DNA from: Desulfocapsa sulfexigens DSM 10523
GTDB taxonomy: Bacteria; Desulfobacterota; Desulfobulbia; Desulfobulbales; Desulfocapsaceae
Assembly: GCF_000341395.1 (NCBI RefSeq)
Contig: NC_020305.1
Location: 4,752-36,751 of the forward strand
Length of the DNA stretch: 32,000 nucleotides
Direction of reading: 5' to 3'
The stretch's first letter is position 1, and each line of letters begins with the position of its first letter. Both the position numbers and the translations under genes were made by a program. The notes below the pieces were generated by a model. It was not told the DNA's origin. It saw only the letters and a program-made list of their open reading frames with translations, and did no database searches. This document shows positions 2 to 26,428 of this stretch, one piece after another.

Positions 2-199
2 CCTAATATCTTGACTTTTCAGCATCATATGGAGTACACAAAAAGGTATTTAATAGCCCTAATTAATTCCAGAAAAGATCTTATAGGATCAGAAATCACC
101 CAAATTGCACTAAATGGAATGAGTCAGGATTTGGATAGCAGTTATGCTGGAAGACTACTTTTGAAGTTCCTAGCCCAACACAGAAATTTAAATCAATAA
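2..199 (+). CDS. Possible 3-prime end of a hypothetical gene that starts upstream of the window
   Basis: The frame is open from the window edge (no stop before the listed ORF 11..199). No recognisable motifs. Confidence 0.3.
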   Translation, partial: PNILTFQHHMEYTKRYLIALINSRKDLIGSEITQIALNGMSQDLDSSYAGRLLLKFLAQHRNLNQ

Positions 200-236: not shown

Positions 237-1175
237 ATGCCTGCTAAGCCTATCGTTGCAATCAAAGTTGGAGATCACCTTATACAGCCATGGATTGACA
301 GAATGACTCCATTGCTTCCGGAGTTTGACTTTATTTCATGGCATGATAATCCTGACCAGGATCTTGTAGAATACGTTATTGGCTGGTGTCCTGATGCTAG
401 GTGGATAAACGGCTTTCCAAATATTAAAGCTGTCGTTTCTGTGGGTTCGGGTGTAGATCATATCATTCACCTAGATGAATTAAAAGATACTATCCCAGTA
501 ATAAGGACAGTTTCAGACGATCTTATTCAAAGAGTGCGAGAGTTTGCAGCGCTTAGCGTTTTATCCTGGCATCGACAATTCCCTCAAATAATAGAAAATA
601 ATAGCATTAGAGAATGGAAAAGATTCTCAATGGAAACCTCTAGCTATTATAAAGTTGGTGTAATGGGCTATGGTTCTATGGGCAAAGCCGTTGCGGAAAC
701 ATTATCGTCACTTGGTTACAATGTTTCAGTTTGGGCAAATAGTAAGCGAGATCTTCCTTACAATTATTACTATGGACGGGACAGTCTTAGTAAATTCGCA
801 AAAGATTTGGACATCCTGATCTGCTTACTCCCACTAACCAATGAAACAGAGAACATCCTCAATGAAGAATTAATGAGAAGTATGAATCAGGGAGGATGTG
901 TTATTAATTTTGCAAGGGGAGCACATTTAGTAGATGATGACCTATTCAAAGTCTTAGATGATAGTCATTTATCAGCAGCCTACCTTGATGGATTTAGAGA
1001 AGAACCTCTTCCCTATAATTCCAAATTTCTTTCCCACGAGAAAGTAATCGTCACCTTTCATTCAGCAGGGTACATTTCACCTGACATTGGCCCTAAAGTT
1101 ATAGCTGCAAATATCCAAAAGTTTGAGCGTAATGAAACGCCATGGCCTATGTATAATAGAGAAAAAGGATTCTAA
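237..1175 (+). CDS. D-isomer-specific 2-hydroxyacid dehydrogenase, GhrA-like (glyoxylate/hydroxypyruvate reductase A family)
   Basis: 312 aa, the same length as E. coli GhrA. Rossmann motif GVMGYGSMGKAV, SVGSGVDHI, LLPLTNETENILN, catalytic-region motifs INFARGAHLVDDDL and VTFHSAG. RBS AAGGAGA lies upstream of the ATG. Confidence 0.9.
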   Translation: MPAKPIVAIKVGDHLIQPWIDRMTPLLPEFDFISWHDNPDQDLVEYVIGWCPDARWINGFPNIKAVVSVGSGVDHIIHLDELKDTIPVIRTVSDDLIQRVREFAALSVLSWHRQFPQIIENNSIREWKRFSMETSSYYKVGVMGYGSMGKAVAETLSSLGYNVSVWANSKRDLPYNYYYGRDSLSKFAKDLDILICLLPLTNETENILNEELMRSMNQGGCVINFARGAHLVDDDLFKVLDDSHLSAAYLDGFREEPLPYNSKFLSHEKVIVTFHSAGYISPDIGPKVIAANIQKFERNETPWPMYNREKGF

Positions 1176-1176
1176 T

Positions 1177-2082
1177 ATGGCTAATTGGCAGCTTCTAGTC
1201 CAAGCCCCTAGTACAGGTTTTCTACTTTCAGTTGTTGGAGTCGCTATAAGCCTTATTGGAACAACCGTAGGTATCTATACATTACTAAAGGTAAAAAAAG
1301 TAGTAAAGGCCCAGATTGAGGAGAGAAAGCTAACGCAAGAGTTGCTTGATGTAGATCAAATAGAGAAAGATCTAAGACGAGTTGTTTCTAAACTAATGCA
1401 GGTTAATGACCACGACTCGGTTTCGCTCGCTAACGCACTCTCACAACGTTTGGGGGCAATCCAGGGTACAAGGAGAGTAATTGATCATGGTGCATCAGCT
1501 TGCGGTTGTGCATCGGGCGATGCTGTTTCCATTAAAACTGGTTTTTTCTGTTCGACACATGTTGATGATTTCATAGAACAAAGCACCTCTCGTATTGACC
1601 TCATGACTGGTAGTACAAGGCTAATAGCAGGGTATTTTACTATGGACAAGATCAAACAGGCATGTGAACGTGGTGTCAAGGTCCGGATAGTTGGGCTATC
1701 CCCCGAGGCACCTGATGATATTTTATTAGATGCAGCAAAAACTGTCTCAAAGCCAGCCCCTGAAACAGCCGAAGACTATCGTAACCTTATAAAGGCAAAC
1801 CACAACGAAATTAGCAAGGTCGTAAACTCTTGGCCTGCACAAACAAAAGAACGATTTGAATACCGGGAGAATTTTGGTGTCCCCAGGGTATCTATTGCAA
1901 AATCAGATGATGTAATATGCTTAGGTTTCTTACAATTGTTTAGAGATGCCCAGCCTGAAAAAATCAACGATAGGCAATACATCAAGATTCCCCAAGATTC
2001 AGAGTTGGGAAGTGTAGTAATGAAACACTTTGAGCAGGGTTGGAGTGAAAGTAAGAAAATCATACCAGCAAAAAGCGGATAA
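1177..2082 (+). CDS. Membrane-anchored protein: N-terminal TM helix, coiled-coil linker, C-terminal domain with a PLD-like scaffold pattern but no HKD motif
   Basis: ATG at 1177 sits 1 nt after the stop of the upstream gene. TM segment GFLLSVVGVAISLIGTTVGIYTLL. STSRIDLMTGSTRLIAG...ACERGVKVRIVGLSP resembles the first strands of PLD-superfamily domains. I see no HxKxxxxD. Confidence 0.7.
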   Translation: MANWQLLVQAPSTGFLLSVVGVAISLIGTTVGIYTLLKVKKVVKAQIEERKLTQELLDVDQIEKDLRRVVSKLMQVNDHDSVSLANALSQRLGAIQGTRRVIDHGASACGCASGDAVSIKTGFFCSTHVDDFIEQSTSRIDLMTGSTRLIAGYFTMDKIKQACERGVKVRIVGLSPEAPDDILLDAAKTVSKPAPETAEDYRNLIKANHNEISKVVNSWPAQTKERFEYRENFGVPRVSIAKSDDVICLGFLQLFRDAQPEKINDRQYIKIPQDSELGSVVMKHFEQGWSESKKIIPAKSG

Positions 2083-2127
2083 CATAAATATTTCCTGTGG
2101 TTCTTCGCACTTTCTGAGGACAACATC

Positions 2128-3057
2128 ATGGCCAGTTTTGCATTTTTCTTGGATCCGCTTGATACTTTATCCTTAGACAAGGATTCAACCTTACAGATAA
2201 TAAAGCAAGGATATTTAAAAGGTCATGATGTCGCCGTATTTCATGATAAGGATCTAATAGTCCGAGATGGTGCTGTTATTATCAACTCAAGAATTATTGA
2301 TTTTACAGCAGAAACACTCTCGGCACAGGTTGATTGCAAAAAAGATATTACTGACTTCGATATACTTTTTGTTCGCAGGGACCCACCAGTAACCATTGAA
2401 TTCTACACTAGTTTAAGCATACTCTCATCAATCGAAGCTAATATCCCCTGTATAAACTCTCCTTCTTCTATTTTAACCTTTCCCGAAAAAATTGGGCCTA
2501 CCACCTTTAAACAACTACACCCTCCAACATTAATTTCCAGTAATCTTTCCGAAATCTATGACTTTAAAAAAGAACATGGAGCTGTCGTAGTAAAACCGTT
2601 ATACAATTACTGTGGAAATGGGGTTTATATTAGTTTACAAAATGATCGAAATTTCAACTCTATCCTCTCACTGTTCAAAATGAACAGTAATACGCCTATA
2701 TTATTGCAGAAATTCATAGAAGACGTTTCAGACGGCGACAGACGGATCATAATGCTAGGTGGTGAACCCGTAGGTGCCATAAACCGTAAGGCAAGCCCCA
2801 ATGATTTTAGATGCAATATGTTTGCTGGTGGAACCCCAACACTTCATAACCTATCGTCGACCGAATTAGAAATGTGTGCCCAAATAAGCCCGATACTGAC
2901 TGAAAGAGGTCTACATCTAGTTGGAATTGATATTATTGGCAACTATATAACAGAAATTAATACAACCGCACCTACAGGTATATTTCAAATTGCCGACCTT
3001 GGTGGCCCGAATCTATGTGCTACAATAATTGACTACGCAGAAACGCTAATAAAATGA
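2128..3057 (+). CDS. ATP-grasp ligase of the prokaryotic glutathione synthetase (GshB) family
   Basis: Collinear with E. coli GshB: DPLDTLSLDKDST, VRRDPP, VVKPLYNYCGNGVY, DGDRRIIMLGGEPVGAINR, NMFAGGT, LVGIDIIGNYITEINTTAPTG. Confidence 0.9.
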   Translation: MASFAFFLDPLDTLSLDKDSTLQIIKQGYLKGHDVAVFHDKDLIVRDGAVIINSRIIDFTAETLSAQVDCKKDITDFDILFVRRDPPVTIEFYTSLSILSSIEANIPCINSPSSILTFPEKIGPTTFKQLHPPTLISSNLSEIYDFKKEHGAVVVKPLYNYCGNGVYISLQNDRNFNSILSLFKMNSNTPILLQKFIEDVSDGDRRIIMLGGEPVGAINRKASPNDFRCNMFAGGTPTLHNLSSTELEMCAQISPILTERGLHLVGIDIIGNYITEINTTAPTGIFQIADLGGPNLCATIIDYAETLIK

Positions 3058-4124
3058 GCTATCCAACAAATACATCAGACATTGAGGTTCCATTTCTCAA
3101 AATTTCAGGCTCTCCCAAAGAAATGGGCCTAACTCATGGAGAAACATATCGTAATTTAATAGGAACTCTCTTCGAAATACGCCATGAATTACTCTTAAAA
3201 GGTGCCAAAGGATCTGATGAAAATAAAATTGAAGACATAGCGTATTCTTTCTGGAAATATATCAGCAATTTTGACAAGCCCTTAGCAATAGAATTGGAAT
3301 CAACAGCCAAAGCAGCGAATATTCTTCCATGGAAGCTGGTTGTTGCAGGTGGTTTCACTGATCTTATGGATGCGCTTTCAACTACTATTCATCCAGATTA
3401 TCATGAATGCACCGTTGCCATCGACCCTGCCAAAGGCTTCATCGCTGGAACATGGGACAGCCACCCCGAAGCAGGAGAAGCACTAATCCTGTTAGAACGA
3501 CACCCGAATAACGGCCCTGCAACTCTAGCCCTCACAACAGCTGGCTGGCCATGTCAACAAGGCCTCAATAGTTATGGTGTTGGATTTGCGATTACCAATC
3601 TCACCCCAAACAAATCTTCAAAACATGGCCTAGTTTATATTGCTGCTAATGCTTTCTTAGGAACAGCACAAAGTACATCTCACATCTTAAACCAGCTAAA
3701 AACAGAAACTTATTGCTCAGGCCATTCTTACATTGTTCTTGATAGAACTGGATCTGGTGCAATTATGGAAACAACCAACACCACAACTAATATTTTACAA
3801 ATTAACTCTCTCACCACCAAGGCTAATCATTACCTATCTGGGCCACAAAGCATTGATAACAACAGTAATTATCTCTACTATGACTACAGTATTTCACGTG
3901 AAAAGGAATTACATGAGAACATATCCCAAATGGCTAATGCACAAGATTTTCCTAGTTGCCTCTTTAATTCTCAGAAAGTCAATCGTACTGATAGTTCTCA
4001 GGTAGCTATCACTTGCGCACATTTTCTAATTTCGGTAATCGATAATACGATTTGGTACGCAAAAGGCCCTGCTCTTCCTCCTCTAAAATATCAGATGCTA
4101 TCAAAAACATTAAGTGACGAGTAA
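3054..4124 (+). CDS. Peptidase C45 / acyl-CoA:6-aminopenicillanic-acid acyltransferase-like Ntn hydrolase
   Basis: N-terminal GSPKEMGLTHGETYRNLI signature and a candidate nucleophile Cys in HECTVAIDP. About 350 aa, typical of the family. ATGA overlap with the upstream gene. Confidence 0.7.
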   Translation: MSYPTNTSDIEVPFLKISGSPKEMGLTHGETYRNLIGTLFEIRHELLLKGAKGSDENKIEDIAYSFWKYISNFDKPLAIELESTAKAANILPWKLVVAGGFTDLMDALSTTIHPDYHECTVAIDPAKGFIAGTWDSHPEAGEALILLERHPNNGPATLALTTAGWPCQQGLNSYGVGFAITNLTPNKSSKHGLVYIAANAFLGTAQSTSHILNQLKTETYCSGHSYIVLDRTGSGAIMETTNTTTNILQINSLTTKANHYLSGPQSIDNNSNYLYYDYSISREKELHENISQMANAQDFPSCLFNSQKVNRTDSSQVAITCAHFLISVIDNTIWYAKGPALPPLKYQMLSKTLSDE

Positions 4125-4125
4125 A

Positions 4126-5808
4126 ATGAAAATAGCAATTATATTCCCACCAATTTTTGACCCTTCAATGCCATACTTGGCACCTTTTCAGCTGAAATCT
4201 TACATAAAAAAGCGTAGACCTTCATGTGAAATAGATGTCTGCGACCTAAACATTCTTTTCTTTAATAGCATTGTAAATAACCCATACAAAAATTTTAACT
4301 ACAGTTTAAACAATACCTCGTCATATGAATCAATTATTACATGTGAAAGCAGTATCACAAGCGCGTTATCTAATTGGTCTCAAACCCATGGCGTTGAAAT
4401 AACAAGACAAAGTGCTGACTATTTTTTTGATACCAGCAATTCTGAAGGCTATGAATCATTTTTAGAAAATACGACACCATTTGAAAACTACCTAAGCAAC
4501 CTTATAATCAATCATATTGACATTCCAAAATATGATCTTTTCTTCTTCTCTATTACTTCTTATGAACAGCTCCTCCCCTCTTTAATCCTGTCTAAAATTG
4601 TAAAGTCGATGAACAAAACGACGAATATTTGCCTTGGGGGAAATATTATATCAAGAATTTTCAAAGGGCTCCTTAATAGTCCCCTGCTAACTTCTATTGA
4701 TTTCCTTGTCATTAAAGAAGGAGAACTACCTAGCGTAAATCTTGTCGATTATCTATCAAATCGTAAGCCTGGTAACCTAACCAATAGTCTCATTGAAGTT
4801 TCAACCAAAAAAGTTATCGACAGAACTCAGAAATCTAAAATTTTTGAAATAGACCAAATTCCTACTATTGAATTTAACGAAGAAGAGTTAGGCTTATATT
4901 TCTCACCTGAACCTGTGATACCAATTTCATTGGCTAGGGGTTGCAGCTGGGGAAAGTGTTCATATTGCGGCATTCACACGGTATGGGGTTCCGGATATCG
5001 AACAAAGCTCCCCATTAAACTTGCTAATGAAATTGAGAATCACAAAAGAAGGTATTCAACTAATAATTTCCGCTTAATTGACGAATCTCCTGCAATCAAA
5101 GACCTACTTAAACTCTCCGACGAACTAATCAGTAAAAACCTTGAAGTCAACATCGAAACTTATTTAAACCTAAGCTCAGCACTTTCAGATCGAGAAACAA
5201 CAAATACACTTTACGAAGCAGGATTCAACCAGCTATTTCTTGGAATTGAAAGTTTGAACAAGGAATTATTGACAGAAATTGGTAAATCCATAAATCACCC
5301 CAACCGGTATGCTGATTTACTTGAAAGTACACACGAAGCAGGGATATCAAACTATTCCTTCCTTATGGTTGGCCTACCTAATGATTCAATCAATAATGAA
5401 TTAGAAGTTGAGAAGTTTGTACTTTCAAATAGTGACATTGATACAATAGCTATTTCAAGCTTTATACCACTCAGCAACTCACCAATGTATTCAGACATCA
5501 GCTTTCAATCCAAACACGGTATCAAGTTTACACCCAGGGGGCCATTGACAACTAGGTGTGATTACAAAACAAATAACAGAGACGTCAGTGAAGAAACCAA
5601 TAATAGAGCCAAGGCAATGGCTAATCGGATCTTCATAGGACGAAGAGATCTCTGCCTCTCTAGCAATATCCCCTATGAATCCCGGTTTTATTTAATCAAT
5701 AAATTTGGAAACAATTGCTTTAAGGACTTAGCAAAAGCCACCAGTTTCAGTTTTAATGAACCTCTGATAAGTACAGAGCTAGACGGCAGGCTTACTGGCC
5801 TAAAATAA
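4126..5808 (+). CDS. B12-binding-domain (class B-like) radical SAM enzyme
   Basis: MKIAIIFPP N-terminus typical of the B12-binding-domain subgroup. Cluster motif ARGCSWGKCSYCG, FLGIESL, and a total length of about 560 aa. I prefer the ATG at 4126 to the GTG at 4114 in the ORF track. Confidence 0.85.
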   Translation: MKIAIIFPPIFDPSMPYLAPFQLKSYIKKRRPSCEIDVCDLNILFFNSIVNNPYKNFNYSLNNTSSYESIITCESSITSALSNWSQTHGVEITRQSADYFFDTSNSEGYESFLENTTPFENYLSNLIINHIDIPKYDLFFFSITSYEQLLPSLILSKIVKSMNKTTNICLGGNIISRIFKGLLNSPLLTSIDFLVIKEGELPSVNLVDYLSNRKPGNLTNSLIEVSTKKVIDRTQKSKIFEIDQIPTIEFNEEELGLYFSPEPVIPISLARGCSWGKCSYCGIHTVWGSGYRTKLPIKLANEIENHKRRYSTNNFRLIDESPAIKDLLKLSDELISKNLEVNIETYLNLSSALSDRETTNTLYEAGFNQLFLGIESLNKELLTEIGKSINHPNRYADLLESTHEAGISNYSFLMVGLPNDSINNELEVEKFVLSNSDIDTIAISSFIPLSNSPMYSDISFQSKHGIKFTPRGPLTTRCDYKTNNRDVSEETNNRAKAMANRIFIGRRDLCLSSNIPYESRFYLINKFGNNCFKDLAKATSFSFNEPLISTELDGRLTGLK

Positions 5809-7350: not shown

Positions 7351-10035
7351 TTACGACTCGTTCGTATCGTGTGCAGGTTTAAGATTAAACCTGCCATGAT
7401 CGTGTTTGTAACACACTATTTCAGCACGTAATTGATCACCCGCATCAAACTCTTCAAGTAATAACGCGCCAGCATCTTTAAGTTTATTAAATTCAGAAAT
7501 GTGTATCAAGCCAGTGCCTTCAATACCAAATTCAACGAACAGGCCGTATTTCTTTATCCCTGTTACCTGGCAGTCAACTACTCTACCAGGAGGATATTTT
7601 TTTTGTAATGTTTCCGTATCAGAAGTACTACTTGCCTTCTCTTTTAGTTTTTGGACATATTCTTTTGGTTCTGTAATATTGCAAAAATCATGAATTCTCT
7701 CTTCTGCTAATATAGCTTCAGGGTTTGCCAGATAACTATCTTTATATTCTTCTAAGTAAGATAGCAAAACTGAGGCATTATCAACTGATGAAGAGTATGA
7801 CATGTGTCCTTTACCTTTACTCCCAATTAATCTATCTGCTATATCTTCCGCAATGCGTGCATCTTTAAACCATACATCTTCAGAACACGTTGAAAGGTAA
7901 TCTAAATTTATGAGTAAATCCAGATGGACATGTCCAGATGGAGCAATTGAAATAAGGTCATCAATTGAAAATTGATTGATGTTTTGAGACTCAGTTGATA
8001 TACATCCCGCCTTGATTAGTTCAGATATTTCATCAGATAACCTTCTTTCGTCATGCCCATATGCTACTAGTTCATTAATGATTGTCGCGGTTTTATGATA
8101 CCCAAGCATCCCGCTTGGACCTTTAGTTCGATATTTTTTCTTTAACCAAGATAAAACTGACAACCTCGCAAAAGGATCTGGTATTATATCTTCTGGAAAA
8201 GATGCAAAAATATTTTTAACGAGGCTGTTAGCATCATTGTAGTACCTTCTGTTCCCGCGAAAAAGAACCCTGGTAACGATATGCTTTGGTAAAACATAAT
8301 CACCCTTTGCATGCCTTATTTTAAATATCTGGTCTTCATGAATGTGTCCACTTTTGCAAAAATCAAGAAAAATTTCCAACCCTTTTCTGATATTTGACCC
8401 AGCAATTCCTGAAACTATTCGCCTAAAAAGTGCATCATTTTGGAATAGTGAACGCAAAATACAAGCTAAATAATATGCTTGTTCAGATTGTGGATATTCA
8501 ACTCGAAATCCATTTGGAAGAACATAGGACAATGAATTCTCTTTCTCCGTATCCATTTCAGCGAGAGCAAGTTTGACTCTCTTGTAAAGAACATCCATGA
8601 ATAGTGGCGCATCAATTCGGAAGACTAAATCTTTGATGACTGTATCTAGTGGTGGTTCTGTTCTGTGGTGATCATATGTGGTGTCACGGATAGGTAGAAA
8701 TACTAGACATCTACATGTTTTTTGGAGCCATTTCGCTACATCAAACATTAGCAATTGGTCGTCTCGATTCCGTTTGTCACTATTATCAAGTGACACAATT
8801 AATAACTTTTGTCTCTCAGCACAAAAATGGCGAATACATGCATTCATAGTTGCATCTGTATCACCTTGCACTCTGATCAACTCATCCGCCAAAAGGCTTT
8901 TATATTTGTCTGAATACTCGTCAAAATAGGCCCCAGCACCTTTTTTAATTTTATTAAGCTCAACACTATATAATTTTTCTAAAAAAGGTAGACTGTCGAA
9001 ATCAATATCAGCGTTATGGTTCCTGAATTCATTAATTATCTCATTCTCCAACCAAGAATAAATCACCCCTCTTGAAAGAGGTGCCAGATTCATATTAATG
9101 GATATCCACACAGTTGATTCTTTAATTTCTTCAGGTAAGGAGACTTCCCTTAGATAATCAATGAATGTTGATTTTCCGCTCCCAACACCTCCAATAAGAA
9201 CTAATAATTGGTGGTGAAGTTTGTCGTTTGGTGTAAGAGTTCTCAACAGTTCACTTGGGTCTGTCGTTGAAATTTGATGAGCATCTGTGATACTTGGCGG
9301 ATTTGCTGCGCGGATTATTTTGTCAATCGGATCTACATGTCTGAGGCGCCTTGTTGATTTTACATAAGCTTTCTTAACAATGTTTTTTCTTTCCTCCTCT
9401 GATTCAGGGTTGAACAAATGCCGATACTCAAGTGCCAAAGTATTACCAAACGAATTTAGCTTCACTTCCTCATTTCTTACTGATCGTCCTCCTATAATGT
9501 TTGTAGGTCTCTTAAATTGAACATTGCCTCTCAATTTTTTTTGTTCTACATCAGAGAATTTTTCTAAATTTACCTTACAACCAAATGTAATCAATTTTGC
9601 GAGATTTGGATGAGATGCGTCTATTTCAGTATTAGAAATTTCTAGTAATATTGAACTGTCATCCCATGAGCCACAAATTGTACGTAATGAATTCGTTGCG
9701 ATTAATTTCTGACAAGGATTAAAATGAGAAGGAAAAAGTGAATTTATTTCACCTGCATATAGCCTTGCTTCACGAATAGCCTCTTCAAGGTTGTTATCCT
9801 CTGGATGTTTTGCTTCAATTACAAGAACAGGAAGGCCGTGTAAGATAACTATATAGTCCGGATAGTATAGTTTTTTTGCCCTTCCCTTGTCTATTTCAAG
9901 CTGCCTAATATCTGGCTTGGTTCTAAAGTCGCATGAAGAGTATCCTAACCCAACAGGTTGACTATTAGTAAGTAGTGGAAGAATGAACTTCTGCTCGACA
10001 TCGCTTTCATTCTTTATATCTTTCTCAGAAATCAT
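7351..10035 (-). CDS. 894-aa multidomain protein: N-terminal PD-(D/E)xK nuclease (HsdR-N-like), central P-loop NTPase (STAND/NACHT-like), helical region, C-terminal S1 OB-fold
   Basis: YYPDYIVILHGLPVLVIEAK gives D60 and E74-x-K76. Walker A GGVGSGKST at aa 282-290. Walker B-like LLIVSLDNSD at aa 411-420. S1 signature GRVVDCQVTGIKKYGLFVEFGIEGTGLIHISEF...GDQLRAEIVCYKHDHGRFNL at the C-terminus. AT-rich and monocistronic. Confidence 0.9.
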   Translation of the reverse strand: MISEKDIKNESDVEQKFILPLLTNSQPVGLGYSSCDFRTKPDIRQLEIDKGRAKKLYYPDYIVILHGLPVLVIEAKHPEDNNLEEAIREARLYAGEINSLFPSHFNPCQKLIATNSLRTICGSWDDSSILLEISNTEIDASHPNLAKLITFGCKVNLEKFSDVEQKKLRGNVQFKRPTNIIGGRSVRNEEVKLNSFGNTLALEYRHLFNPESEEERKNIVKKAYVKSTRRLRHVDPIDKIIRAANPPSITDAHQISTTDPSELLRTLTPNDKLHHQLLVLIGGVGSGKSTFIDYLREVSLPEEIKESTVWISINMNLAPLSRGVIYSWLENEIINEFRNHNADIDFDSLPFLEKLYSVELNKIKKGAGAYFDEYSDKYKSLLADELIRVQGDTDATMNACIRHFCAERQKLLIVSLDNSDKRNRDDQLLMFDVAKWLQKTCRCLVFLPIRDTTYDHHRTEPPLDTVIKDLVFRIDAPLFMDVLYKRVKLALAEMDTEKENSLSYVLPNGFRVEYPQSEQAYYLACILRSLFQNDALFRRIVSGIAGSNIRKGLEIFLDFCKSGHIHEDQIFKIRHAKGDYVLPKHIVTRVLFRGNRRYYNDANSLVKNIFASFPEDIIPDPFARLSVLSWLKKKYRTKGPSGMLGYHKTATIINELVAYGHDERRLSDEISELIKAGCISTESQNINQFSIDDLISIAPSGHVHLDLLINLDYLSTCSEDVWFKDARIAEDIADRLIGSKGKGHMSYSSSVDNASVLLSYLEEYKDSYLANPEAILAEERIHDFCNITEPKEYVQKLKEKASSTSDTETLQKKYPPGRVVDCQVTGIKKYGLFVEFGIEGTGLIHISEFNKLKDAGALLLEEFDAGDQLRAEIVCYKHDHGRFNLKPAHDTNES

Positions 10036-10258: not shown

Positions 10259-11554
10259 TTAAACATCCTCCCCCAGCCGCTCCCCAATAAAAACAGCTAA
10301 CATCCCCTCAACCATTCCAGGGGTCACCCCTGCCTCATCATATCGTTTCAGCACAATCGTGTTGCCGGTCGCCACTAGGTTCTCGCGGAATTCAGCCAAA
10401 AAAGCTTCTCTCTCCCCTTCCCCCATGGATTCATACCGTGACATGGCAAGTTCCTGTTTCTGCCTTTTTTCGGCTTCCTGGCCATCTTCCTGCTGTTTTT
10501 TAGCTATCCTCTCCTGGATAACAGCTTTTTGCTGTACTTCATACTCCACTTCAATAATTGATTCCTGCGGCTTCCATCCCTCTTCAATGGCCTTCCTGGC
10601 AATGCCTCCGACACTCTCCACCTTCTGGCCGCGCTTTCGCACCTTGTTTATATATTCTCTTGCCATCTGCAAGGCCGCCTTAATGTGATCATGGCCGTAC
10701 TCTTCCACCAGCTCCTGTGCTTTTTTCTCGGGAGAAATACCGAACTCCATGATCAGAATATCTTCCATGGAGGTCTGCCCTCCCCTGTCACTTATTCCTG
10801 GAAGCTCCATCTGCTGATAGCGTTTATTTTTGCTCCAGGTAAACTCAATCTCCTGTACCTTCCGTCCCTTCTTGATCTGGATAAAATCAAATTGAACATC
10901 GGTCTTGGCGGCTATATCCTTTTTGGCTGGCAACAGAACTTTTGATTTAAAATGACCAAACAGCCGGTATGTTCCTTCGGGAATGGCCAGATATTCACGG
11001 AGCCAGGAAAGCTCAACTCTTGCAGATTTGCGGTGATCCACATTGGCAAGCCCCTGGTTGTACTTGATGAACTGATAAATTCGCAGGGAGTAGTGATTTC
11101 TTAGACGAATGACCGCCCTTGCTTCTCCAAGGGTGGTGAAATTACCTTTCAGGGCAAGAAGAAACGGTTTGAGGGTCGGGTCAAAGCGTAATTCAACACA
11201 CCCTTTCCCTGGGATAATAGAGGCGGAAGAGCACCAGGTGGTTTTGTCGATCCGGCCATCTGCCTTTTCATCCGGATTGATCCAGCGAATAACCTTCTTC
11301 AGCAGCCCTTCTGTGGCCTCATCAAAACGAGCATAGAGATCATTGCGGCTGCCCCCCATGATATTGCAGAGTTCCCTGATGGATATCCGGTAGGGCTTGA
11401 AATCCTTATCACCTCGTTGGATCAGCGACAGCATATAGAGCACCAACCGCTGTTCGTTAATCTTCAATTGCGGCCATTGTGCTTCTATGAGCAGATCATT
11501 AGAGGCAGCTATCAGACCACCGCCCTCTTCCTTTTTGATCACCTCGTCAGTCAA
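10259..11554 (-). CDS. Plasmid replication initiator, Rep_3/RepB family
   Basis: N-terminal NDLLIEAQWPQLKINEQRLVLYMLSLIQ pattern typical of Rep_3 initiators. TTG start per the ORF track. Iterons lie immediately upstream. Confidence 0.85.
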   Translation of the reverse strand: MTDEVIKKEEGGGLIAASNDLLIEAQWPQLKINEQRLVLYMLSLIQRGDKDFKPYRISIRELCNIMGGSRNDLYARFDEATEGLLKKVIRWINPDEKADGRIDKTTWCSSASIIPGKGCVELRFDPTLKPFLLALKGNFTTLGEARAVIRLRNHYSLRIYQFIKYNQGLANVDHRKSARVELSWLREYLAIPEGTYRLFGHFKSKVLLPAKKDIAAKTDVQFDFIQIKKGRKVQEIEFTWSKNKRYQQMELPGISDRGGQTSMEDILIMEFGISPEKKAQELVEEYGHDHIKAALQMAREYINKVRKRGQKVESVGGIARKAIEEGWKPQESIIEVEYEVQQKAVIQERIAKKQQEDGQEAEKRQKQELAMSRYESMGEGEREAFLAEFRENLVATGNTIVLKRYDEAGVTPGMVEGMLAVFIGERLGEDV

Positions 11555-11635: not shown

Positions 11636-11967
11636 GAAAATAGTGATAGTTAGTTTCTGCACATCCGAGAATGGTGATAGTTAAGAAAGAATCAGGGAGT
11701 AATTACCCTCCAATCATTACGCTAATGGGCACATCCGAGAATGGTGATAGTTCATCCGAATTCGGTGATAGTTGAGAAAGAGTAAAGCAAACAATGCCCC
11801 TGTAACCCTTACTGGCAAGTACTTTACTGCCTATGTGTTCTCAATATCCATTCCCCCGAGAATAGTGATAGTTCATCCGAGAATGGTGATAATAACTCCG
11901 AGTTTAGTGATAGTTCATCCGAGTTTGGTGATAGTTAGTCCGAGAATGGTGATAGTTTGAGCAAAAT
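11636..11967. repeat. Iteron array (oriV): about nine copies of TCCGAGAATGGTGATAGTT
   Basis: Copies at 11636-11651 (partial), 11664-11682, 11734-11752 and 11755-11773. Five tandem copies with 21-bp phasing follow at 11865-11883, 11886-11904, 11907-11925, 11928-11946 and 11949-11967. Confidence 0.9.
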
Positions 11968-21408: not shown

Positions 21409-22017
21409 TCATTTATCTTTTTGGAATAATGCCATACCATCAGTACCTTTTGGTATGAATGCAACGTTTTCTGACAACTCTTCGTGCTCAATCTCAACTA
21501 CAGCTAAATAACCTGTATCCAATGTTAGCTTTTCCCAGACAGGAAAATATGGTGCTAATTCTGCGTAATTGCCAATTCTATCCGTAAGATATTGATACAT
21601 ATCCCTTGACGGTAGAATCAGAAGACCTCCTTCAAGAACATTTTCAAGTAGTCCAATGGCAAGCTTATTTACCGCCCTGTGGCTTGAAGAAATATTACCA
21701 GTTTCCCATTCTACAGCAAAATATTTACCGTTATTCAATTTAAGGACGGCATCAACCGGACCTGGTTTTATTCGAGCCCCAAGAGCCATCGGATGTTCTA
21801 ATATCCAACCCTGTTCTTCCAAGTGTATCATACAATTTGTTTTTATTGGCTTTACGCCATTTCCCTTTTTCACGGGATTCAGGGTGAATATGTCAGAATC
21901 GGGTGGCCATGAAACCTTTTTTATTGCATGATAAACATCGTGGAGCAGTGTTTCCAGCTCATCACTTTTTGGAAATGAACCCTTTGAAATTAAAACTTCA
22001 GTCCTCAATATTTTCAT
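21409..22017 (-). CDS. Type II restriction endonuclease, BamHI family
   Basis: Collinear motif matches to R.BamHI as I remember it: EWETGNISSSHRAVNKLAIGL (BamHI EFETGNISSAHRSMNKLLLGL), QYLTDRIGNYAELAPYF (YYLTDRVTNFEELEPYF) and FIPKGTDGM (LIPKGSDGM). Confidence 0.9.
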   Translation of the reverse strand: MKILRTEVLISKGSFPKSDELETLLHDVYHAIKKVSWPPDSDIFTLNPVKKGNGVKPIKTNCMIHLEEQGWILEHPMALGARIKPGPVDAVLKLNNGKYFAVEWETGNISSSHRAVNKLAIGLLENVLEGGLLILPSRDMYQYLTDRIGNYAELAPYFPVWEKLTLDTGYLAVVEIEHEELSENVAFIPKGTDGMALFQKDK

Positions 22018-22383: not shown

Positions 22384-23637
22384 ATGAAAAGACAGAATGC
22401 ATTTTTTGAAGCACTTGGCGTTGATGCAACAAATAGTAAGGAGGTAACGCGACTTGCTGTAATTAGCGGCATTTCCGTTAAAAAACTTCGTTACTACAAT
22501 GAACATCACCTGATGCCCTCTGGCACTGAGTTGGAGAAGATCATAGAAACAACCAATGTAACTAAGTTGAAGCTTATGTTGAAACTTGGTTGTGTTGATC
22601 ATAATGTTGCAGGAATGCTAAGTGAACATGCTGATGAAATTATTACTCTTTTTGAAAAAGAGAAAAAACAAACAAAAGCCAAAAAAAGATTACAGCCTGT
22701 CTTTGAAACAAATCTAGGAAAGCTTTATCACGGTAATTGTATTGAAGTCCTGATGCAGATGCCAAGCAATAGCGTTGATATGGTCTTTGCAGATCCACCG
22801 TTTAATCTGAACAAATTGTATCCCTCTAACATAAATGATGACTTAAAGGCTGAACAGTATCTGGATTGGTGTGAAGATTGGATAGACGAATGTGTGAGGG
22901 TCCTAAAGTTTGGCGGAGCGTTTTTATTATGGAATTTGCCAAAATGGAATTCTGCTTTATCTAATTTTCTGAATGATAGATTAACTTTCAGGCATTGGAT
23001 TGCTACCGACATCAAATATAGATTACCGATTAAAGGTAGACTGTATCCTGCACACTATTCTTTGCTGTATTATATAAACGGAGACAAGCCTAAAACATTC
23101 CATCCTGATAGGTTGCCAATGCAGGTATGTCCAAAATGTAGTGGTGATCTGAAAGATTATGGTGGCTATAAAGCAAAAATGAATCCAGCTGGAGTTAATA
23201 TGTCTGATATCTGGATTGATATTCCACCAGTCCGTCATAATAAATATAAGCGTCGCGAGGGGGCCAACGAACTATCACTTAAACTGCTCGATAGAATAGT
23301 GGAAATGAGCACCGATGAGGGAGACATTGTCTTTGATCCTTTTGGTGGTTCAGGTACTACCTACATGGCCTCTGAATTGAAAAAACGTAAATGGATTGGG
23401 TGTGAAATCGGCCCAGTTGATGATATTGTTAACAGGTTTGACCACATCAACGAAGAGAGGGAAATTCTAAATAATTATCGTGATAATTTAAATAGTTTAT
23501 TTCCAAAGCAGATCTTAAAAAAAAGAGAAAAGGAAGGGCTATGGACCTGTGAATCTGTCAGAAGTAAAGCTGCATTAAAAATGTCTACAACTACCTACAC
23601 AGAAAACTCCATTCCCCAGCTTGCAAAGACCAAATGA
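22384..23637 (+). CDS. DNA methyltransferase (beta-class N4-cytosine/N6-adenine), cognate to the BamHI-like endonuclease
   Basis: Motif IV FADPPFN precedes motif I FDPFGGSGTT (beta-class order). 417 aa. Divergent from the C-R operon, as in the BamHI system. Confidence 0.9.
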   Translation: MKRQNAFFEALGVDATNSKEVTRLAVISGISVKKLRYYNEHHLMPSGTELEKIIETTNVTKLKLMLKLGCVDHNVAGMLSEHADEIITLFEKEKKQTKAKKRLQPVFETNLGKLYHGNCIEVLMQMPSNSVDMVFADPPFNLNKLYPSNINDDLKAEQYLDWCEDWIDECVRVLKFGGAFLLWNLPKWNSALSNFLNDRLTFRHWIATDIKYRLPIKGRLYPAHYSLLYYINGDKPKTFHPDRLPMQVCPKCSGDLKDYGGYKAKMNPAGVNMSDIWIDIPPVRHNKYKRREGANELSLKLLDRIVEMSTDEGDIVFDPFGGSGTTYMASELKKRKWIGCEIGPVDDIVNRFDHINEEREILNNYRDNLNSLFPKQILKKREKEGLWTCESVRSKAALKMSTTTYTENSIPQLAKTK

Positions 23638-25515: not shown

Positions 25516-26372
25516 AATTACCGATCATTCAATCACCCCAGCTCGTAAAGCAAACAGAAATAGCCCTGGCCTATGCCCTTTTTCAACGGGAAAGGCACGG
25601 TAAACGGCTGGAACAGGTTGTTTTAGCCCCTGAAAACAAGCGGGGATACCTTGGGGTGTCTTCAATTTCCACCCCGCCGTGTGTGCTGTATTACTCGCTG
25701 ACAAACGAGCCCAAGGAAGAAACGGATCTTCCTTCCCGCTTTGGATTTGATACCGGCCATATTTTAGAAGGATACGTTCTGGATCTGCTCCAGGCCGAGG
25801 AACGCCAGGGGGAATTATCCTGGCCGTATCTTCTCGCCCCTAGTGGGGTTATTAAGGGCCATTTTGATGGCAGGACGAAAAATCTTATGCAGGATGGGGC
25901 TTGTATTATCGAGGTGAAGGCCACCGGGGGGTATTCGTTCAACAAAAAAATAGAGGAAGGTGCAGACAACGGGCATATCGAACAGGCATTCGTTTACGCA
26001 GTCGGCAGCTCCTCCCCCTATTTCGTTATAATTTACTGCAATCGTGAAGCAAAGAAAAGCACTCCTTTTTATGCGGTGTTTGGTTTTCATATTCCGGACA
26101 TGATAGCGGCAAAAAAGGCGGTTCAGGATCTGTTCGCAGAAAGATTCGATCCCGTTTTGTTATCCCTGCACCATGAATTACGGCCGGATCAGCCGGAAAA
26201 ACCCCGTTGGGAGTTCGGCCCCAGGGGCTGGCGGTGCCGCCCCGATTCTTCGTACTTCACTAAAGGCGGGAAGGAAAATTTTACCGTTGGCTATTGCTCT
26301 TACCGGGGAACCTGTCCGGAAGGGCTGGCGTACCGCGAAATCGAAGAGGAAAGAAAGGTCGCAGCGGCATAA
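25512..26372 (+). CDS. PD-(D/E)xK exonuclease, RecB/Cas4-like, with C-terminal cysteines
   Basis: I prefer the ATG at 25512, which overlaps the upstream stop. HFDGR...IIEVKAT (D...ExK) and QAFVY (QxxxY). Cysteines at PPCVLYY, WRCRP and GYCSYRGTCP suggest an Fe-S cluster. Confidence 0.75.
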   Translation: MKLPIIQSPQLVKQTEIALAYALFQRERHGKRLEQVVLAPENKRGYLGVSSISTPPCVLYYSLTNEPKEETDLPSRFGFDTGHILEGYVLDLLQAEERQGELSWPYLLAPSGVIKGHFDGRTKNLMQDGACIIEVKATGGYSFNKKIEEGADNGHIEQAFVYAVGSSSPYFVIIYCNREAKKSTPFYAVFGFHIPDMIAAKKAVQDLFAERFDPVLLSLHHELRPDQPEKPRWEFGPRGWRCRPDSSYFTKGGKENFTVGYCSYRGTCPEGLAYREIEEERKVAAA

Positions 26373-26380
26373 ATAAAAGC

Positions 26381-26408
26381 GTCGCCCTGGGCATTGCCCC
26401 AGGGCGAC
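26381..26408 (+). other. 11-bp perfect GC-rich hairpin between the nuclease and ATPase genes
   Basis: gtcgccctggg (26381-26391) pairs with cccagggcgac (26398-26408). No U-tract follows. Confidence 0.5.
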
Positions 26409-26428
26409 AGCACAGCGAGGCACAGATT

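What the first reader, a model, noticed from the sequence alone, without database searches (positions are those of the whole stretch)
237..5808. AT-rich five-gene operon: dehydrogenase, membrane PLD-like protein, GshB-type ligase, C45 Ntn-hydrolase and B12 radical SAM enzyme
Five same-strand genes are packed with gaps of 1 nt or a 4-bp overlap, except for a 45-nt gap before the ATP-grasp gene, so they are probably co-transcribed. They form a low-GC island next to the plasmid partition genes. The enzyme set does not correspond to any pathway I can name. It contains a 2-hydroxyacid dehydrogenase, an ATP-grasp peptide/depsipeptide-type ligase, a Cys-Ntn acyltransferase/hydrolase and a class-B radical SAM enzyme. 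Formally it echoes VanH-VanA-VanX logic (make a hydroxy acid, ligate it, hydrolyse a competing product), but with different families for the ligase and hydrolase. Together with a membrane-anchored PLD-like protein, it could make or remodel a small peptide-like metabolite or envelope component. It could also be a signal-plus-effector type conflict system.
Basis: partly seen in the sequence, partly recalled or inferred. Interest (0 to 1): 0.75.

Follow-up and report, generated by a model that had tools for sequence, protein, structure and literature searches.

The report
Mobile metabolite operon with tethered PLD-fold protein
A rare, horizontally mobile six-gene operon (not five; the window cuts off the first gene) pairs enzymes that make and break peptide-like bonds with a membrane-anchored protein whose PLD-type domain has lost the usual catalytic motif and is elsewhere fused to immune effector domains, so it may be an undescribed metabolite-based conflict system, but its function is unproven.

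Summary
Five co-directional genes lie at the stated coordinates with the stated spacing, in low-GC DNA next to parA, on the 36.7-kb Desulfocapsa sulfexigens plasmid. Four family calls are confirmed. The "PLD-like" protein (g2) has a PLD fold but no HxKx4D motif.

Corrections and additions:
- The operon has six genes. Window 2-199 is the 3' end of a class-I glutamine amidotransferase gene that precedes the dehydrogenase in relatives.
- The genes co-occur. Seven other distinct loci (38-82% identity) keep the set, including one with the radical SAM gene inverted.
- Three variants (B, C, D) swap the accessory enzymes.
- The dehydrogenase and g2 are adjacent in all 13 distinct loci.
- The cluster sits on plasmids, integrative elements or beside defence genes. 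It is very rare: one hit among 185,579 species genomes, none in 72,556 plasmids.
- g2 relatives occur fused to TIR and caspase domains.

No profile library (Pfam, NCBIfam, PADLOC) or searchable paper describes this set.

Best reading (confidence 0.4): the enzymes make and trim a small anionic peptide or hydroxy-acid metabolite, which a membrane-tethered PLD-fold receptor/effector reads in a conflict system.

Rivals: antimetabolite biosynthesis, membrane-lipid remodelling, catabolism, RiPP maturation.

The parts
2..199 (+). 3' end (last 65 codons) of a class-I glutamine amidotransferase gene, the first gene of the operon, cut by the window start
   Evidence: Translation aligns with the C-termini of the GATases that precede the dehydrogenase in L001, L003 and L005, with the Q-x-H-x-E motif invariant. 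Full-length relatives keep the G-[IV]-C-F-G-H-Q nucleophile elbow.
237..1175 (+). D-isomer-specific 2-hydroxyacid dehydrogenase, GhrA-like (g1)
   Evidence: PF02826 E = 1e-37. Best NCBIfam hit is GhrA at 173 bits, below its cut-off of 403. PDB GhrA E = 1e-43. The GxGxxG motif and the Arg/Glu/His residues are conserved across all cluster types. It lies immediately upstream of g2 in all 13 distinct loci.
1177..2082 (+). g2: single-pass membrane protein with an N-terminal TM helix (about residues 13-35), a long helical stalk to about residue 108, and a cytoplasmic non-HKD PLD-fold domain
   Evidence: No Pfam, NCBIfam or PADLOC hit. AF2 model pLDDT 80. Foldseek: TrmBL2 2e-9, Nuc 5e-7, FAM83A pseudo-PLD, PssA, Zucchini. 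No HxKx4D in 19 homologues; R237-x-S239-x4-D244-x5-GFLQ253 instead. The family is rare, with 93 clusters among 1.84e9 representatives. Relatives are fused to TIR and caspase domains.
2128..3057 (+). GshB-type ATP-grasp ligase (g3)
   Evidence: PF02955 E = 4.5e-57 and PF02951 E = 2.4e-18. PRK05246 scores 291.4 against a cut-off of 272, but TIGR01380 scores 287.8 against 299.05. E. coli GshB (1gsa) E = 1e-37, with the KDS, RxDPP, GDxR, RxNxxAGG and TEIN motifs kept.
3054..4124 (+). C45-family autoproteolytic Cys-Ntn acyltransferase/hydrolase (g4)
   Evidence: PF03417 E = 9e-17. NF040521 scores 133 bits against a cut-off of 85. The H-E-C-[TS] site (candidate nucleophile Cys about residue 117) and many other motifs are invariant in 9 loci. 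No relative in the PDB by sequence.
4126..5808 (+). Cobalamin-dependent-type (class B) radical SAM enzyme with a CX4CX2C cluster motif (g5)
   Evidence: PF04055 E = 6e-15. All NCBIfam hits are B12-rSAM families, the best being TIGR03975 at 97.7 bits, below its cut-off of 281.85. AF2 model pLDDT 92.4. The top Foldseek hits are all solved cobalamin rSAMs (CysS, OxsB, TsrM, MgmA, TokK), aligned full length. C273, C278 and C281 are invariant in 17 homologues.

Best explanation
The region is the cargo operon of a small iteron plasmid. It is a rare, horizontally mobile six-gene module: GATase, D-2-hydroxyacid dehydrogenase, g2, GshB-type ligase, C45 Ntn hydrolase and B12-type radical SAM enzyme.

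Proposed working (inferred, not shown):
1. The dehydrogenase supplies a D-2-hydroxy or 2-oxo acid building block.
2. The GshB-type ligase uses ATP to join a small amino or hydroxy acid to the carboxylate of a gamma-glutamyl-type partner.
3. The radical SAM enzyme modifies an unactivated carbon, most likely by methylation.
4. The two Cys-nucleophile amidases (C45 and the class-I GATase) trim or turn over the product.

The result would be a small, anionic, peptide-like metabolite whose level is set by synthesis against hydrolysis.

g2 is probably a dimeric single-pass membrane protein. Its cytoplasmic PLD-fold domain has lost the catalytic His and Lys but keeps a pocket lined with invariant Arg, Asp, Gln and His. 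I propose it is the receptor for this metabolite or a precursor, and that it converts binding into a membrane event.

The whole would act in biological conflict, either as phage defence by abortive infection or in competition between mobile elements. Homologous PLD-fold domains fused to TIR or caspase modules would be alternative outputs of the same sensor.
For: Shown:
- The gene set is conserved. Type A (all six genes) occurs in the window and in L001, L003/4, L005/6, L011, L012 and L013 at 38-82% identity. L009 keeps the set but with the rSAM inverted and convergent.
- The system is modular. Type B has DH, g2, rSAM, a second B12-rSAM, an AstE/AspA-type deacylase and a PhzF or amino-acid racemase. 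Type C has C45, a 2OG-Fe(II) oxygenase, DH and g2. Type D has DH, g2 and C45 convergent with GshB-like, an unknown protein and a PEP-utilising enzyme.
- DH and g2 are always adjacent, with a gap of -1 to 9 nt in 10 of 11 measured loci. Their pairwise identities co-vary (r = 0.94).
- All accessory enzymes act on amino acids or amide bonds, and their catalytic residues are intact.
- g2 has a PLD fold without HKD. Close relatives carry caspase-like N-termini (P0115, P0116; E about 1e-33 to the g2 profile). A more distant relative carries a TIR domain (P0162; TIR E = 1e-20).
- Context is mobile or defence-related:
  - This plasmid also carries a BamHI restriction-modification pair and an HSDR_N/S1 gene of the same low GC3.
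  - L001 lies beside conjugation (T4SS) genes.
  - L003 directly abuts a CTD10-MC6-DUF2326 ABC three-component system.
  - L005 lies beside SNF2, DUF3800, a methylase and a restriction enzyme.
  - L007/L008 lie next to three serine recombinases.
  - L016 lies beside a Dsr1-like SIR2 gene.
  - The P0039 contig carries an integrase and an IS element.
- Distribution is patchy: Desulfobulbaceae, a Flavobacteriales MAG, a Bacteroidota-like contig and a probably archaeal contig.
Against: - No experiment or known homologue links any of these proteins to defence. PADLOC gives no hit.
- Six enzymes is a lot for making a signal; known signalling defence systems use one synthase.
- The neighbourhoods of the TIR and caspase fusions could not be examined, so it is unknown whether they accompany similar enzymes.
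- Many wider g2-family members carry R-x-H-x4-D, with a His at the canonical Lys position. The domain may therefore be a variant enzyme rather than a sensor. The many invariant polar residues fit either reading.
- The best Foldseek hit to non-catalytic TrmBL2 has a poor rmsd (12 Å) and is helped by the long helix.
- Several loci (L009, L013, L015) sit among ordinary housekeeping-type genes.
- The defence-island association is anecdotal and was not tested statistically.
Confidence: 0.4

Rival explanations
1. It is a biosynthetic gene cluster for a secreted small-peptide antimetabolite or other specialised metabolite. This would resemble the ATP-grasp dipeptide and tripeptide 'Trojan horse' antibiotics such as bacilysin, dapdiamide, tabtoxin or phosphinothricin tripeptide. 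g2 would act as a self-protection, scaffolding or export-associated protein rather than a sensor-effector.
For: - The enzyme classes are those of such clusters: ATP-grasp ligase, amidotransferase, dehydrogenase, a C-H functionalising rSAM or 2OG oxygenase, a racemase and a deacylase.
- Modular swapping of tailoring enzymes between types A-D is typical of natural-product clusters.
- The second rSAM of type B is most similar to PhpK-type P-methyltransferases (145 bits).
- Such clusters are also mobile and patchily distributed.
Against: - No transporter or exporter is conserved in any type.
- The only constant partner of the dehydrogenase is g2, not a biosynthetic enzyme.
- TIR and caspase fusions of the g2 domain are not expected for a biosynthetic accessory protein.
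- No NCBIfam equivalog from any known antibiotic pathway reaches its cut-off.
Confidence: 0.22
2. It is a membrane-lipid or envelope remodelling module. g2 would be a variant PLD-superfamily phosphatidyl transferase, like PssA, cardiolipin synthase or MitoPLD. It would attach the hydroxy acid made by the adjacent dehydrogenase (later extended and trimmed by the ligase, hydrolases and rSAM) to a phospholipid, creating a new head group that changes surface properties.
For: - g2 is N-terminally membrane-anchored with a single PLD-fold domain. By my recollection this is the architecture of MitoPLD/Zucchini. PssA and Zucchini are among the fold matches.
- The dehydrogenase that would make the hydroxyl nucleophile is always adjacent to g2 and co-varies with it.
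- Wider family members keep a His in the motif region, and the G-x-x-N/Q half-motif is kept.
- Some B12-rSAM relatives act in lipid biosynthesis (TIGR04072, HpnJ and HpnR among the hits).
- Envelope-modifying genes are common plasmid cargo (general knowledge).
Against: - The nucleophilic His and the Lys of HKD are absent in all 19 close homologues, replaced by Arg and Ser.
- No CDP-diacylglycerol or other lipid-metabolism gene is conserved nearby.
- Soluble TIR- and caspase-fused relatives without a TM segment do not fit a lipid transferase.
- The positive-inside rule places the domain in the cytoplasm on a roughly 70-residue stalk.
Confidence: 0.15
3. It is a catabolic or detoxification cassette for an N-acyl or gamma-glutamyl amino-acid derivative, for example a D-amino-acid, sulfonate (cysteate-like) or antibiotic-like compound, carried as a niche-adaptive trait. 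g2 would be a membrane-associated binding or regulatory protein.
For: - Hydrolases dominate the accessory set: C45, a GATase/C26-like enzyme and an AstE/AspA deacylase.
- The racemase in L008 is closest to cysteate racemase CuyB (91.5 bits). A PLP enzyme downstream in L012 is closest to D-cysteate sulfo-lyase CuyA (354 bits). Both are below their cut-offs.
- The dehydrogenase is GhrA-like.
- The host is a sulfur-disproportionating bacterium (PMC3739170).
Against: - No uptake transporter or regulator is conserved.
- An ATP-consuming ligase and a B12 radical SAM enzyme are atypical for catabolism.
- The CuyA-like and CuyB-like genes each occur in only one locus.
- The fusions of the g2 domain are unexplained by this reading.
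Confidence: 0.1
4. It is a RiPP or protein-modification system. The B12 radical SAM enzyme C-methylates a ribosomal peptide or a protein (possibly g2 itself), and the ligase and hydrolases process it.
For: The best NCBIfam hit of the rSAM is TIGR03975, the RiPP-maturation radical SAM C-methyltransferase family (97.7 bits). GshB and RimK relatives can extend protein C-termini (RimK hits).
Against: - The TIGR03975 score is far below its cut-off of 281.85.
- No conserved small ORF lies within 800 nt of ten type A and B loci, and the operon has no room inside it (gaps of 45 nt or less).
- The g2 C-terminal tails are not conserved.
- Types C and D lack the rSAM altogether.
Confidence: 0.05
5. It is a chance juxtaposition of unrelated genes on a mosaic plasmid.
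For: The plasmid is compositionally mosaic.
Against: The same genes in the same order recur in at least seven other distinct loci at 38-82% identity, plus a rearranged locus that keeps the set. Pairwise identities of the families are correlated, with r up to 0.94.
Confidence: 0.01

Closest known systems
Signal-plus-sensor-effector anti-phage systems (CBASS, Pycsar, Thoeris, type III CRISPR ancillary effectors)
   Same: The logic I propose is the same: operon-encoded enzymes make a small molecule that a dedicated sensor domain reads. The sensor is joined to interchangeable effectors (TM segment, TIR, caspase-like protease), as with SAVED, CARF, STING and SLOG domains (comparison from general knowledge). 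Both are mobile, patchily distributed and sit next to other defence genes.
   Different: There is no nucleotide cyclase, TIR synthase or Cas10. The enzymes are a hydroxyacid dehydrogenase, a GshB-type ligase, Cys amidases and a B12 radical SAM enzyme, so any signal would not be a cyclic nucleotide. The putative sensor has a PLD fold, which is not a known sensor family in these systems. There are no PADLOC hits, and defence activity is untested.
VanH-VanA-VanX glycopeptide-resistance operon
   Same: It combines a D-2-hydroxyacid dehydrogenase, an ATP-grasp ligase and a hydrolase in a mobile operon. The dehydrogenase belongs to the same superfamily as VanH.
   Different: - VanH models score 54 bits or less against cut-offs of 540 or more.
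- The ligase is GshB-type, not Ddl/VanA-type.
- The hydrolase is a C45 Cys-Ntn enzyme, not the M15 zinc dipeptidase VanX.
- There is no VanRS regulator.
- The ligase and hydrolase are absent in type B.
Glutathione synthase GshB; also glutathionylspermidine synthetase/amidase as a ligase-plus-Cys-amidase pair
   Same: g3 aligns end to end with E. coli GshB (E = 1e-37), keeps all the ATP-grasp and substrate-loop motifs, and passes one of the two NCBIfam equivalog cut-offs. Pairing a ligase with a Cys-nucleophile amidase recalls the synthetase and amidase halves of Gss (from general knowledge).
   Different: It fails the TIGR01380 cut-off. No gshA is in the operon. It sits on a plasmid in a six-gene module with unrelated enzymes. 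Identity to E. coli GshB is only about 30%. The substrate is unknown.
TrmB/TrmBL2 effector-binding domain and FAM83 DUF1669 (non-catalytic PLD-fold domains); MitoPLD/Zucchini and Nuc (single-HKD PLD enzymes)
   Same: g2 has the PLD fold preceded by a long helix, as in TrmBL2 (best Foldseek E = 2e-9). Like TrmB and FAM83 it lacks HKD. Like MitoPLD (architecture from my knowledge) it is N-terminally membrane-anchored with a single PLD domain.
   Different: No sequence-level similarity to any solved structure. There is a TM helix in place of TrmB's DNA-binding domain. It has its own invariant signature: TG[SR]T, TVxxPAP and PRxSx4Dx5GFLQ.
Class B (cobalamin-dependent) radical SAM methyltransferases (CysS, TokK, TsrM, MgmA, PoyB/C-type TIGR03975)
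   Same: The full-length predicted fold matches all solved members, and every NCBIfam hit is to a B12-rSAM family.
   Different: No family cut-off is reached. The cluster motif is CX4CX2C rather than CX3CX2C. The substrate is unknown. Pfam finds no B12-binding domain in this sequence itself.

Membership tests
VanHAX-type resistance operon | VanH-type D-lactate dehydrogenase | tested here: not met
   vanH_gen scores 53.9 bits against a cut-off of 540. The best hit is instead GhrA at 173 bits.
VanHAX-type resistance operon | Ddl/VanA-type D-Ala-D-X ligase and M15 D,D-dipeptidase VanX | tested here: not met
   The ligase hits the GSH-S and RimK families only. The hydrolase is C45 (PF03417, NF040521).
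Glutathione synthase (GshB) | Score above the curated equivalog cut-offs | tested here: inconclusive
   PRK05246 scores 291.4 against 272 (passes). TIGR01380 scores 287.8 against 299.05 (fails).
Glutathione synthase (GshB) | Conserved ATP-grasp and substrate-loop motifs of E. coli GshB | tested here: met
   The alignment to 1gsa keeps KDS, RxDPP, GDxR, RxNxxAGG and TEINxTxPT. The roles of these residues are recalled from the literature and were not tested.
Glutathione synthase (GshB) | Catalyses gamma-Glu-Cys + Gly to glutathione | not testable with these tools
   Needs an enzyme assay. The context (no gshA, a mobile six-gene module) argues for a different substrate.
PLD superfamily (HKD enzymes) | PLD alpha/beta fold | tested here: met
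   AF2 model pLDDT 80. Foldseek matches Nuc (E = 5e-7, TM 0.63 on the target), NucT, PssA, Zucchini and PLD3. There are weak PF13091 hits in the L015 and L016 orthologues.
PLD superfamily (HKD enzymes) | HxKxxxxD catalytic motif | tested here: not met
   Absent from all 19 homologues. The aligned positions are the invariant R237, S239 (18 of 19) and D244.
C45 autoproteolytic Ntn acyltransferase/hydrolase | Family profile above cut-off and a conserved internal Cys nucleophile | tested here: met
   NF040521 scores 133.1 bits against 85. H-E-C-[TS] is invariant in 9 loci.
C45 autoproteolytic Ntn acyltransferase/hydrolase | Self-cleavage that exposes an N-terminal Cys | not testable with these tools
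   Needs analysis of the purified protein.
Class B cobalamin-dependent radical SAM | N-terminal Rossmann-type cobalamin domain fused to a radical SAM barrel | tested here: met
   AF2 model pLDDT 92.4. The top 13 Foldseek hits are CysS, OxsB, TsrM, MgmA and TokK over 500-650 aligned columns. PF02310 is recorded for homologues P0005-P0007.
Class B cobalamin-dependent radical SAM | Canonical CX3CX2C [4Fe-4S] motif | tested here: not met
   The motif is C273-x4-C278-x2-C281, invariant in 17 homologues. Three Cys are still available for a cluster.
Class B cobalamin-dependent radical SAM | Binds cobalamin and methylates its substrate | not testable with these tools
   Needs biochemistry. AprD4, which by my recollection has the same fold but does not use cobalamin, is also among the hits.
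RiPP biosynthetic cluster | A precursor-peptide gene next to the maturase | tested here: not met
   No small ORF (18-130 aa) is conserved within 800 nt of ten loci at E <= 1e-3. Very short or divergent precursors could be missed.
Known anti-phage defence systems (PADLOC-DB v2) | A match to any component model | tested here: not met
   The only hit for the five proteins is a non-significant one (E = 0.006) for the dehydrogenase. Type D partners and g2 fusions hit only through the TIR part.
Cyclic-nucleotide signalling defence (CBASS, Pycsar, Thoeris) | A CD-NTase, cyclase or TIR signal synthase in the operon | tested here: not met
   None of the operon proteins belongs to these families.

The most novel reading that the evidence does not exclude
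This would be the founding example of a metabolite-signalling immune system whose messenger is not a nucleotide. A small peptide or hydroxy-acid conjugate would be made by a GshB-type ligase, a 2-hydroxyacid dehydrogenase and a B12 radical SAM enzyme (or an oxygenase), and degraded by C45 and GATase amidases. It would be read by a previously unrecognised PLD-fold sensor domain that evolution has coupled to a membrane anchor, TIR or caspase effectors.
Probability: 0.25. Interest if true: 0.9.

Novelty: categorically new. Interest (0 to 1): 0.72.

Why it matters
If the proposed reading is right, it would add a new chemical class of messenger and a new sensor fold to prokaryotic immunity. Until now that field has been dominated by nucleotide-derived signals and by SAVED, CARF, STING and SLOG sensors.

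It would also assign a role to a protein family with no annotation: about 93 clusters at 50% identity among 1.84 billion representatives.

Even under the rival readings the operon is of interest. It would encode either an unknown modified peptide-like metabolite made with a GshB paralogue and a non-canonical (CX4CX2C) B12 radical SAM enzyme, or a new phospholipid head-group pathway.

The system is directly testable. It is compact at about 6.5 kb. It exists in a cultured, sequenced strain (DSM 10523). Its natural variants, in which an rSAM is replaced by a 2OG oxygenase or a PEP-utilising enzyme, offer built-in comparative experiments.

Tried and rejected
- **Nucleotide searches.** Megablast of the cluster and of the rest of the window against 72,556 plasmids and 5,426 E. 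coli genomes found nothing. The source plasmid itself seems to be absent from, or masked in, the collections.
- **Protein searches against plasmids.** tblastn found no g2, no C45, and only 22-26% identical radical SAM genes.
- **Collection scans.** The rSAM profile found nothing in 185,579 species genomes. The g2 profile found one MAG. One metagenome scan returned one locus. Two viral-contig scans returned none, so there is no sign of phage carriage.
- **PADLOC.** Uninformative on operon proteins, type D partners and g2 fusions.
- **PDB by sequence.** No hit for C45, for the g2 profile (only spurious designed armadillo repeats) or for the 483-aa type D protein.
- **Promoter/terminator scan.** No more sites than shuffled sequence.
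- **RiPP precursor.** The search for conserved small ORFs was negative.
- **Literature.** Ten searches on combinations of the enzyme names, defence terms and PLD/TrmB sensors returned nothing relevant. The genome paper does not discuss the plasmid genes.
- **Rejected ideas.** Membership in VanHAX (families differ). Housekeeping glutathione synthesis (mobile context, no gshA). Phosphonate biosynthesis (no PEP mutase in any locus, although PhpK-like hits appear in type B). Chance juxtaposition.

Full report
**1. What is in the window**

The window is the 36,751-bp plasmid of Desulfocapsa sulfexigens DSM 10523. The radical SAM, g2 and C45 proteins are each 100% identical to the database proteins that NCBI names for this plasmid. 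The genome paper gives the plasmid as CP003986 (PMC3739170).

The gaps are 1 nt, 45 nt, a 4-bp overlap and 1 nt.

Profile searches confirm four of the five families:
- A D-2-hydroxyacid dehydrogenase. Its best hit is GhrA at 173 bits, below the cut-off.
- A GshB-type ATP-grasp ligase. It passes PRK05246 (291 against 272) but not TIGR01380 (288 against 299).
- A C45 autoproteolytic Ntn enzyme (133 bits against 85).
- A radical SAM protein whose NCBIfam hits are all B12-binding families. The best is TIGR03975 at 98 bits, far below its cut-off.

The cluster has GC 0.386 and GC3 0.31-0.35. The plasmid backbone genes (parA, rep3, primase, integrase) have GC3 of about 0.55. The BamHI restriction-modification pair and an 894-aa HSDR_N/P-loop/S1 gene share the low-GC signature. 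The cluster is therefore acquired cargo, alongside other defence-type cargo.

**2. A sixth gene**

Window positions 2-199 translate to a 65-residue C-terminus. It aligns with the class-I glutamine amidotransferases that precede the dehydrogenase in related loci, and the Q-x-H-x-E motif is invariant. Full-length relatives keep the catalytic Cys elbow G-[IV]-C-F-G-H-Q. The operon has six genes, and its start and promoter lie outside the window.

**3. The co-occurrence test**

The radical SAM protein has only about 17 full-length relatives at 38-71% identity among 5.8 billion clusters. Their neighbourhoods, together with those of g2 and C45 relatives, fall into four architectures.

| Type | Gene content | Loci |
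|---|---|---|
| A | GATase, DH, g2, GshB-like, C45, rSAM | window, L001, L003/4, L005/6, L011, L012, L013; L009 has the rSAM inverted and convergent |
| B | DH, g2, rSAM, second B12-rSAM, AstE/AspA-type deacylase, PhzF isomerase or amino-acid racemase | L007/8, L010, L014 |
| C | C45, 2OG-Fe(II) oxygenase, DH, g2 | L015 (a Flavobacteriales MAG; the contig ends inside C45) |
| D | DH, g2, C45 convergent with GshB-like, an unknown 444-483-aa protein and a PEP-synthase-like enzyme | L016/17 and the P0039 contig |

- In L009 the neighbouring genes (DUF2551, CofC) suggest an archaeon.
- The type B second gene is a remote but clear g2 homologue (hhalign probability 98.7%, 260 columns).
- Across loci the families' pairwise identities are correlated: DH with g2 r = 0.94, DH with C45 0.92, C45 with rSAM 0.87.
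- DH and g2 are adjacent on the same strand in all 13 distinct loci. The gap is -1 to 9 nt in 10 of the 11 loci measured.

Chance juxtaposition is excluded. The constant core is DH plus g2. Everything else is a swappable set of enzymes directed at amino acids and amide bonds, plus one C-H-activating enzyme (the rSAM in anaerobe-type loci, a 2OG oxygenase in the Flavobacteriales MAG).

**4. The enzymes look active**

- The GshB-like protein aligns end to end with E. coli GshB and keeps its motifs.
- C45 has an invariant H-E-C-[TS] site and many other invariant motifs.
- The DH keeps GxGxxG and the Arg/Glu/His residues in all types.
- The rSAM model (pLDDT 92.4) matches, over its full length, every solved cobalamin-dependent radical SAM enzyme: CysS, OxsB, TsrM, MgmA and TokK. 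Its cluster motif is the unusual C-x4-C-x2-C, invariant in 17 homologues.
- No conserved small ORF that could be a RiPP precursor flanks ten loci.

**5. The key unknown, g2**

- It has no hit in Pfam, NCBIfam or PADLOC.
- The AlphaFold2 model (pLDDT 80) has an N-terminal TM helix, with Lys/Arg after it so the C-terminus is cytoplasmic. A long helical stalk to about residue 108 follows, then an alpha/beta domain.
- Foldseek assigns that domain to the PLD fold. Matches include the non-catalytic TrmBL2, TrmB and FAM83A, and the catalytic Nuc, NucT, PssA, Zucchini and PLD3.
- None of 19 homologues has HxKx4D. The aligned positions are the invariant R237, S239 and D244, followed by G250-F-L-Q253. 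Other invariant polar residues include T144, T147, D185, T189, Y201, W219, Y229, R256, Q259, R266 and H284.
- A full HMMER scan of 1.84 billion representatives finds only 93 family members. About two thirds have an N-terminal hydrophobic segment.
- Some members have other N- or C-terminal modules:
  - P0115 has a caspase domain (E = 6e-6).
  - P0116 has an N-terminus matching annotated caspase-family proteins by tblastn.
  - P0113 has a weak AbiEii-like nucleotidyltransferase hit.
  - P0162 has a TIR domain (E = 1e-20).
  - The fusions keep the family signature (PRVxxVRSDxxxxxGF, TVxPxxP).
- Caveat: many wider family members have R-x-H-x4-D, and type B has P-x-H-x4-D. A variant catalytic activity cannot be excluded.

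**6. Context**

The cluster lies:
- on this plasmid (window);
- beside conjugation genes (L001);
- directly abutting a CTD10-MC6-DUF2326 ABC three-component system, whose last gene overlaps the GATase start (L003);
- beside SNF2, DUF3800, a methylase and a restriction enzyme (L005);
- next to three serine recombinases (L007/8);
- beside a Dsr1-like SIR2-DUF4020 gene (L016/17; NF041818 at 291 bits, below cut-off);
- next to integrase fragments and an ISL3 transposase (the P0039 contig).

Other loci (L009, L013, L015) sit among ordinary genes. The family is absent from 72,556 plasmids, from E. coli genomes and from viral contigs. It occurs in one of 185,579 species representatives.

**7. Interpretation**

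Shown:
- A real, conserved, rare, mobile and modular operon.
- Active-looking enzymes of amino-acid, amide and hydroxy-acid chemistry.
- A membrane-tethered non-HKD PLD-fold protein strictly coupled to the dehydrogenase.
- Fusions of that domain to TIR and caspase modules.

Inferred (confidence about 0.4): the enzymes set the level of a small anionic peptide-like metabolite. g2 binds it and produces a membrane-level output in a conflict system.

Rivals:
- A biosynthetic cluster for a peptide antimetabolite (0.22).
- Phospholipid head-group remodelling by a variant PLD transferase (0.15).
- Catabolism or detoxification (0.10).
- A RiPP or protein-modification system (0.05).

The VanHAX analogy is only formal. 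Ten literature searches and the Pfam, NCBIfam and PADLOC profile libraries gave no description of this gene set, so by what these tools can reach it is undescribed.

Noticed in passing
window 7351-10035 (- strand): An 894-aa protein with an HSDR_N (type I restriction R-subunit N-terminal) domain, a Walker-A-like GGVGSGKST motif and a C-terminal S1 RNA-binding domain. Its GC3 is very low (0.28), like the operon and the BamHI pair. It may be a stand-alone defence gene. There is no significant PADLOC hit.
   Followed up: partly
window 21409-22017 (-) and 22384-23637 (+): A BamHI-family restriction endonuclease (PF02923, E = 2e-87) lies divergent from an N6/N4 DNA methylase. This is a type II restriction-modification pair with the same low GC3 as the operon.
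   Followed up: partly
window 11732-11957: 21-bp tandem repeats (2 copies, then about 5 copies) lie just upstream of the Rep3 initiator gene (10259-11554, - strand). These are presumably the plasmid's iterons and origin.
   Followed up: no
window 4126-5808, protein residues 273-281: The radical SAM cluster motif is C-x4-C-x2-C (RGCSWGKCSYCG), not the canonical C-x3-C-x2-C. It is invariant in all 17 homologues.
   Followed up: partly
L015 1041-1673: In the Flavobacteriales MAG variant, a 2OG-Fe(II) oxygenase (HalD-like) sits between C45 and the dehydrogenase and there is no radical SAM gene. This may be an aerobic replacement for the anaerobic C-H-activating enzyme. A PfkB kinase follows g2 after a 490-bp gap.
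   Followed up: partly
L009 16-1113 (+) and 1298-7173 (-): This locus is probably archaeal (neighbours DUF2551, CofC, aIF-2B-like). It keeps all six genes, but the radical SAM gene is inverted and convergent. A PP-loop (NAD synthase, QueC or Asn synthase-like) gene lies upstream of the GATase.
   Followed up: partly
L003 2453-5371: A CTD10-MC6-DUF2326 ABC three-component system lies directly upstream on the same strand. The end of its last gene overlaps the GATase start by 11 nt, so the two may be co-transcribed.
   Followed up: no
L016 10705-14196 (-): A 1163-aa SIR2_2-DUF4020 protein resembling the anti-phage sirtuin Dsr1 (NF041818, 291 bits, below its cut-off of 1400) lies next to the type D cluster.
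   Followed up: no
L012 7148-8269 and L008 11635-12360: A PLP enzyme closest to D-cysteate sulfo-lyase CuyA (354 bits) follows the type A cluster in L012. The type B racemase in L008 is closest to cysteate racemase CuyB (91.5 bits). Both are below their cut-offs. Together they hint at a D-amino acid with an anionic beta-substituent as a substrate or by-product.
   Followed up: no
L001 5404-5952: The GATase called in this locus is only 182 aa and lacks the first ~66 residues present in its relatives. This is either a miscalled start or a truncated gene. A PhzF-family isomerase gene lies just upstream (4357-5142).
   Followed up: no
window 26294-27325: An AAA_24 ATPase lies on the plasmid. The type A cluster in L001 is also flanked by AAA_24 and SSB genes, so the two may share a mobile-element replication module.
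   Followed up: no
whole window: Neither the plasmid collection nor the species-genome scan returned the source plasmid itself, although it is a public complete sequence (CP003986). The collections seem to have it removed or masked, so 'no match' results slightly understate its presence.
   Followed up: no
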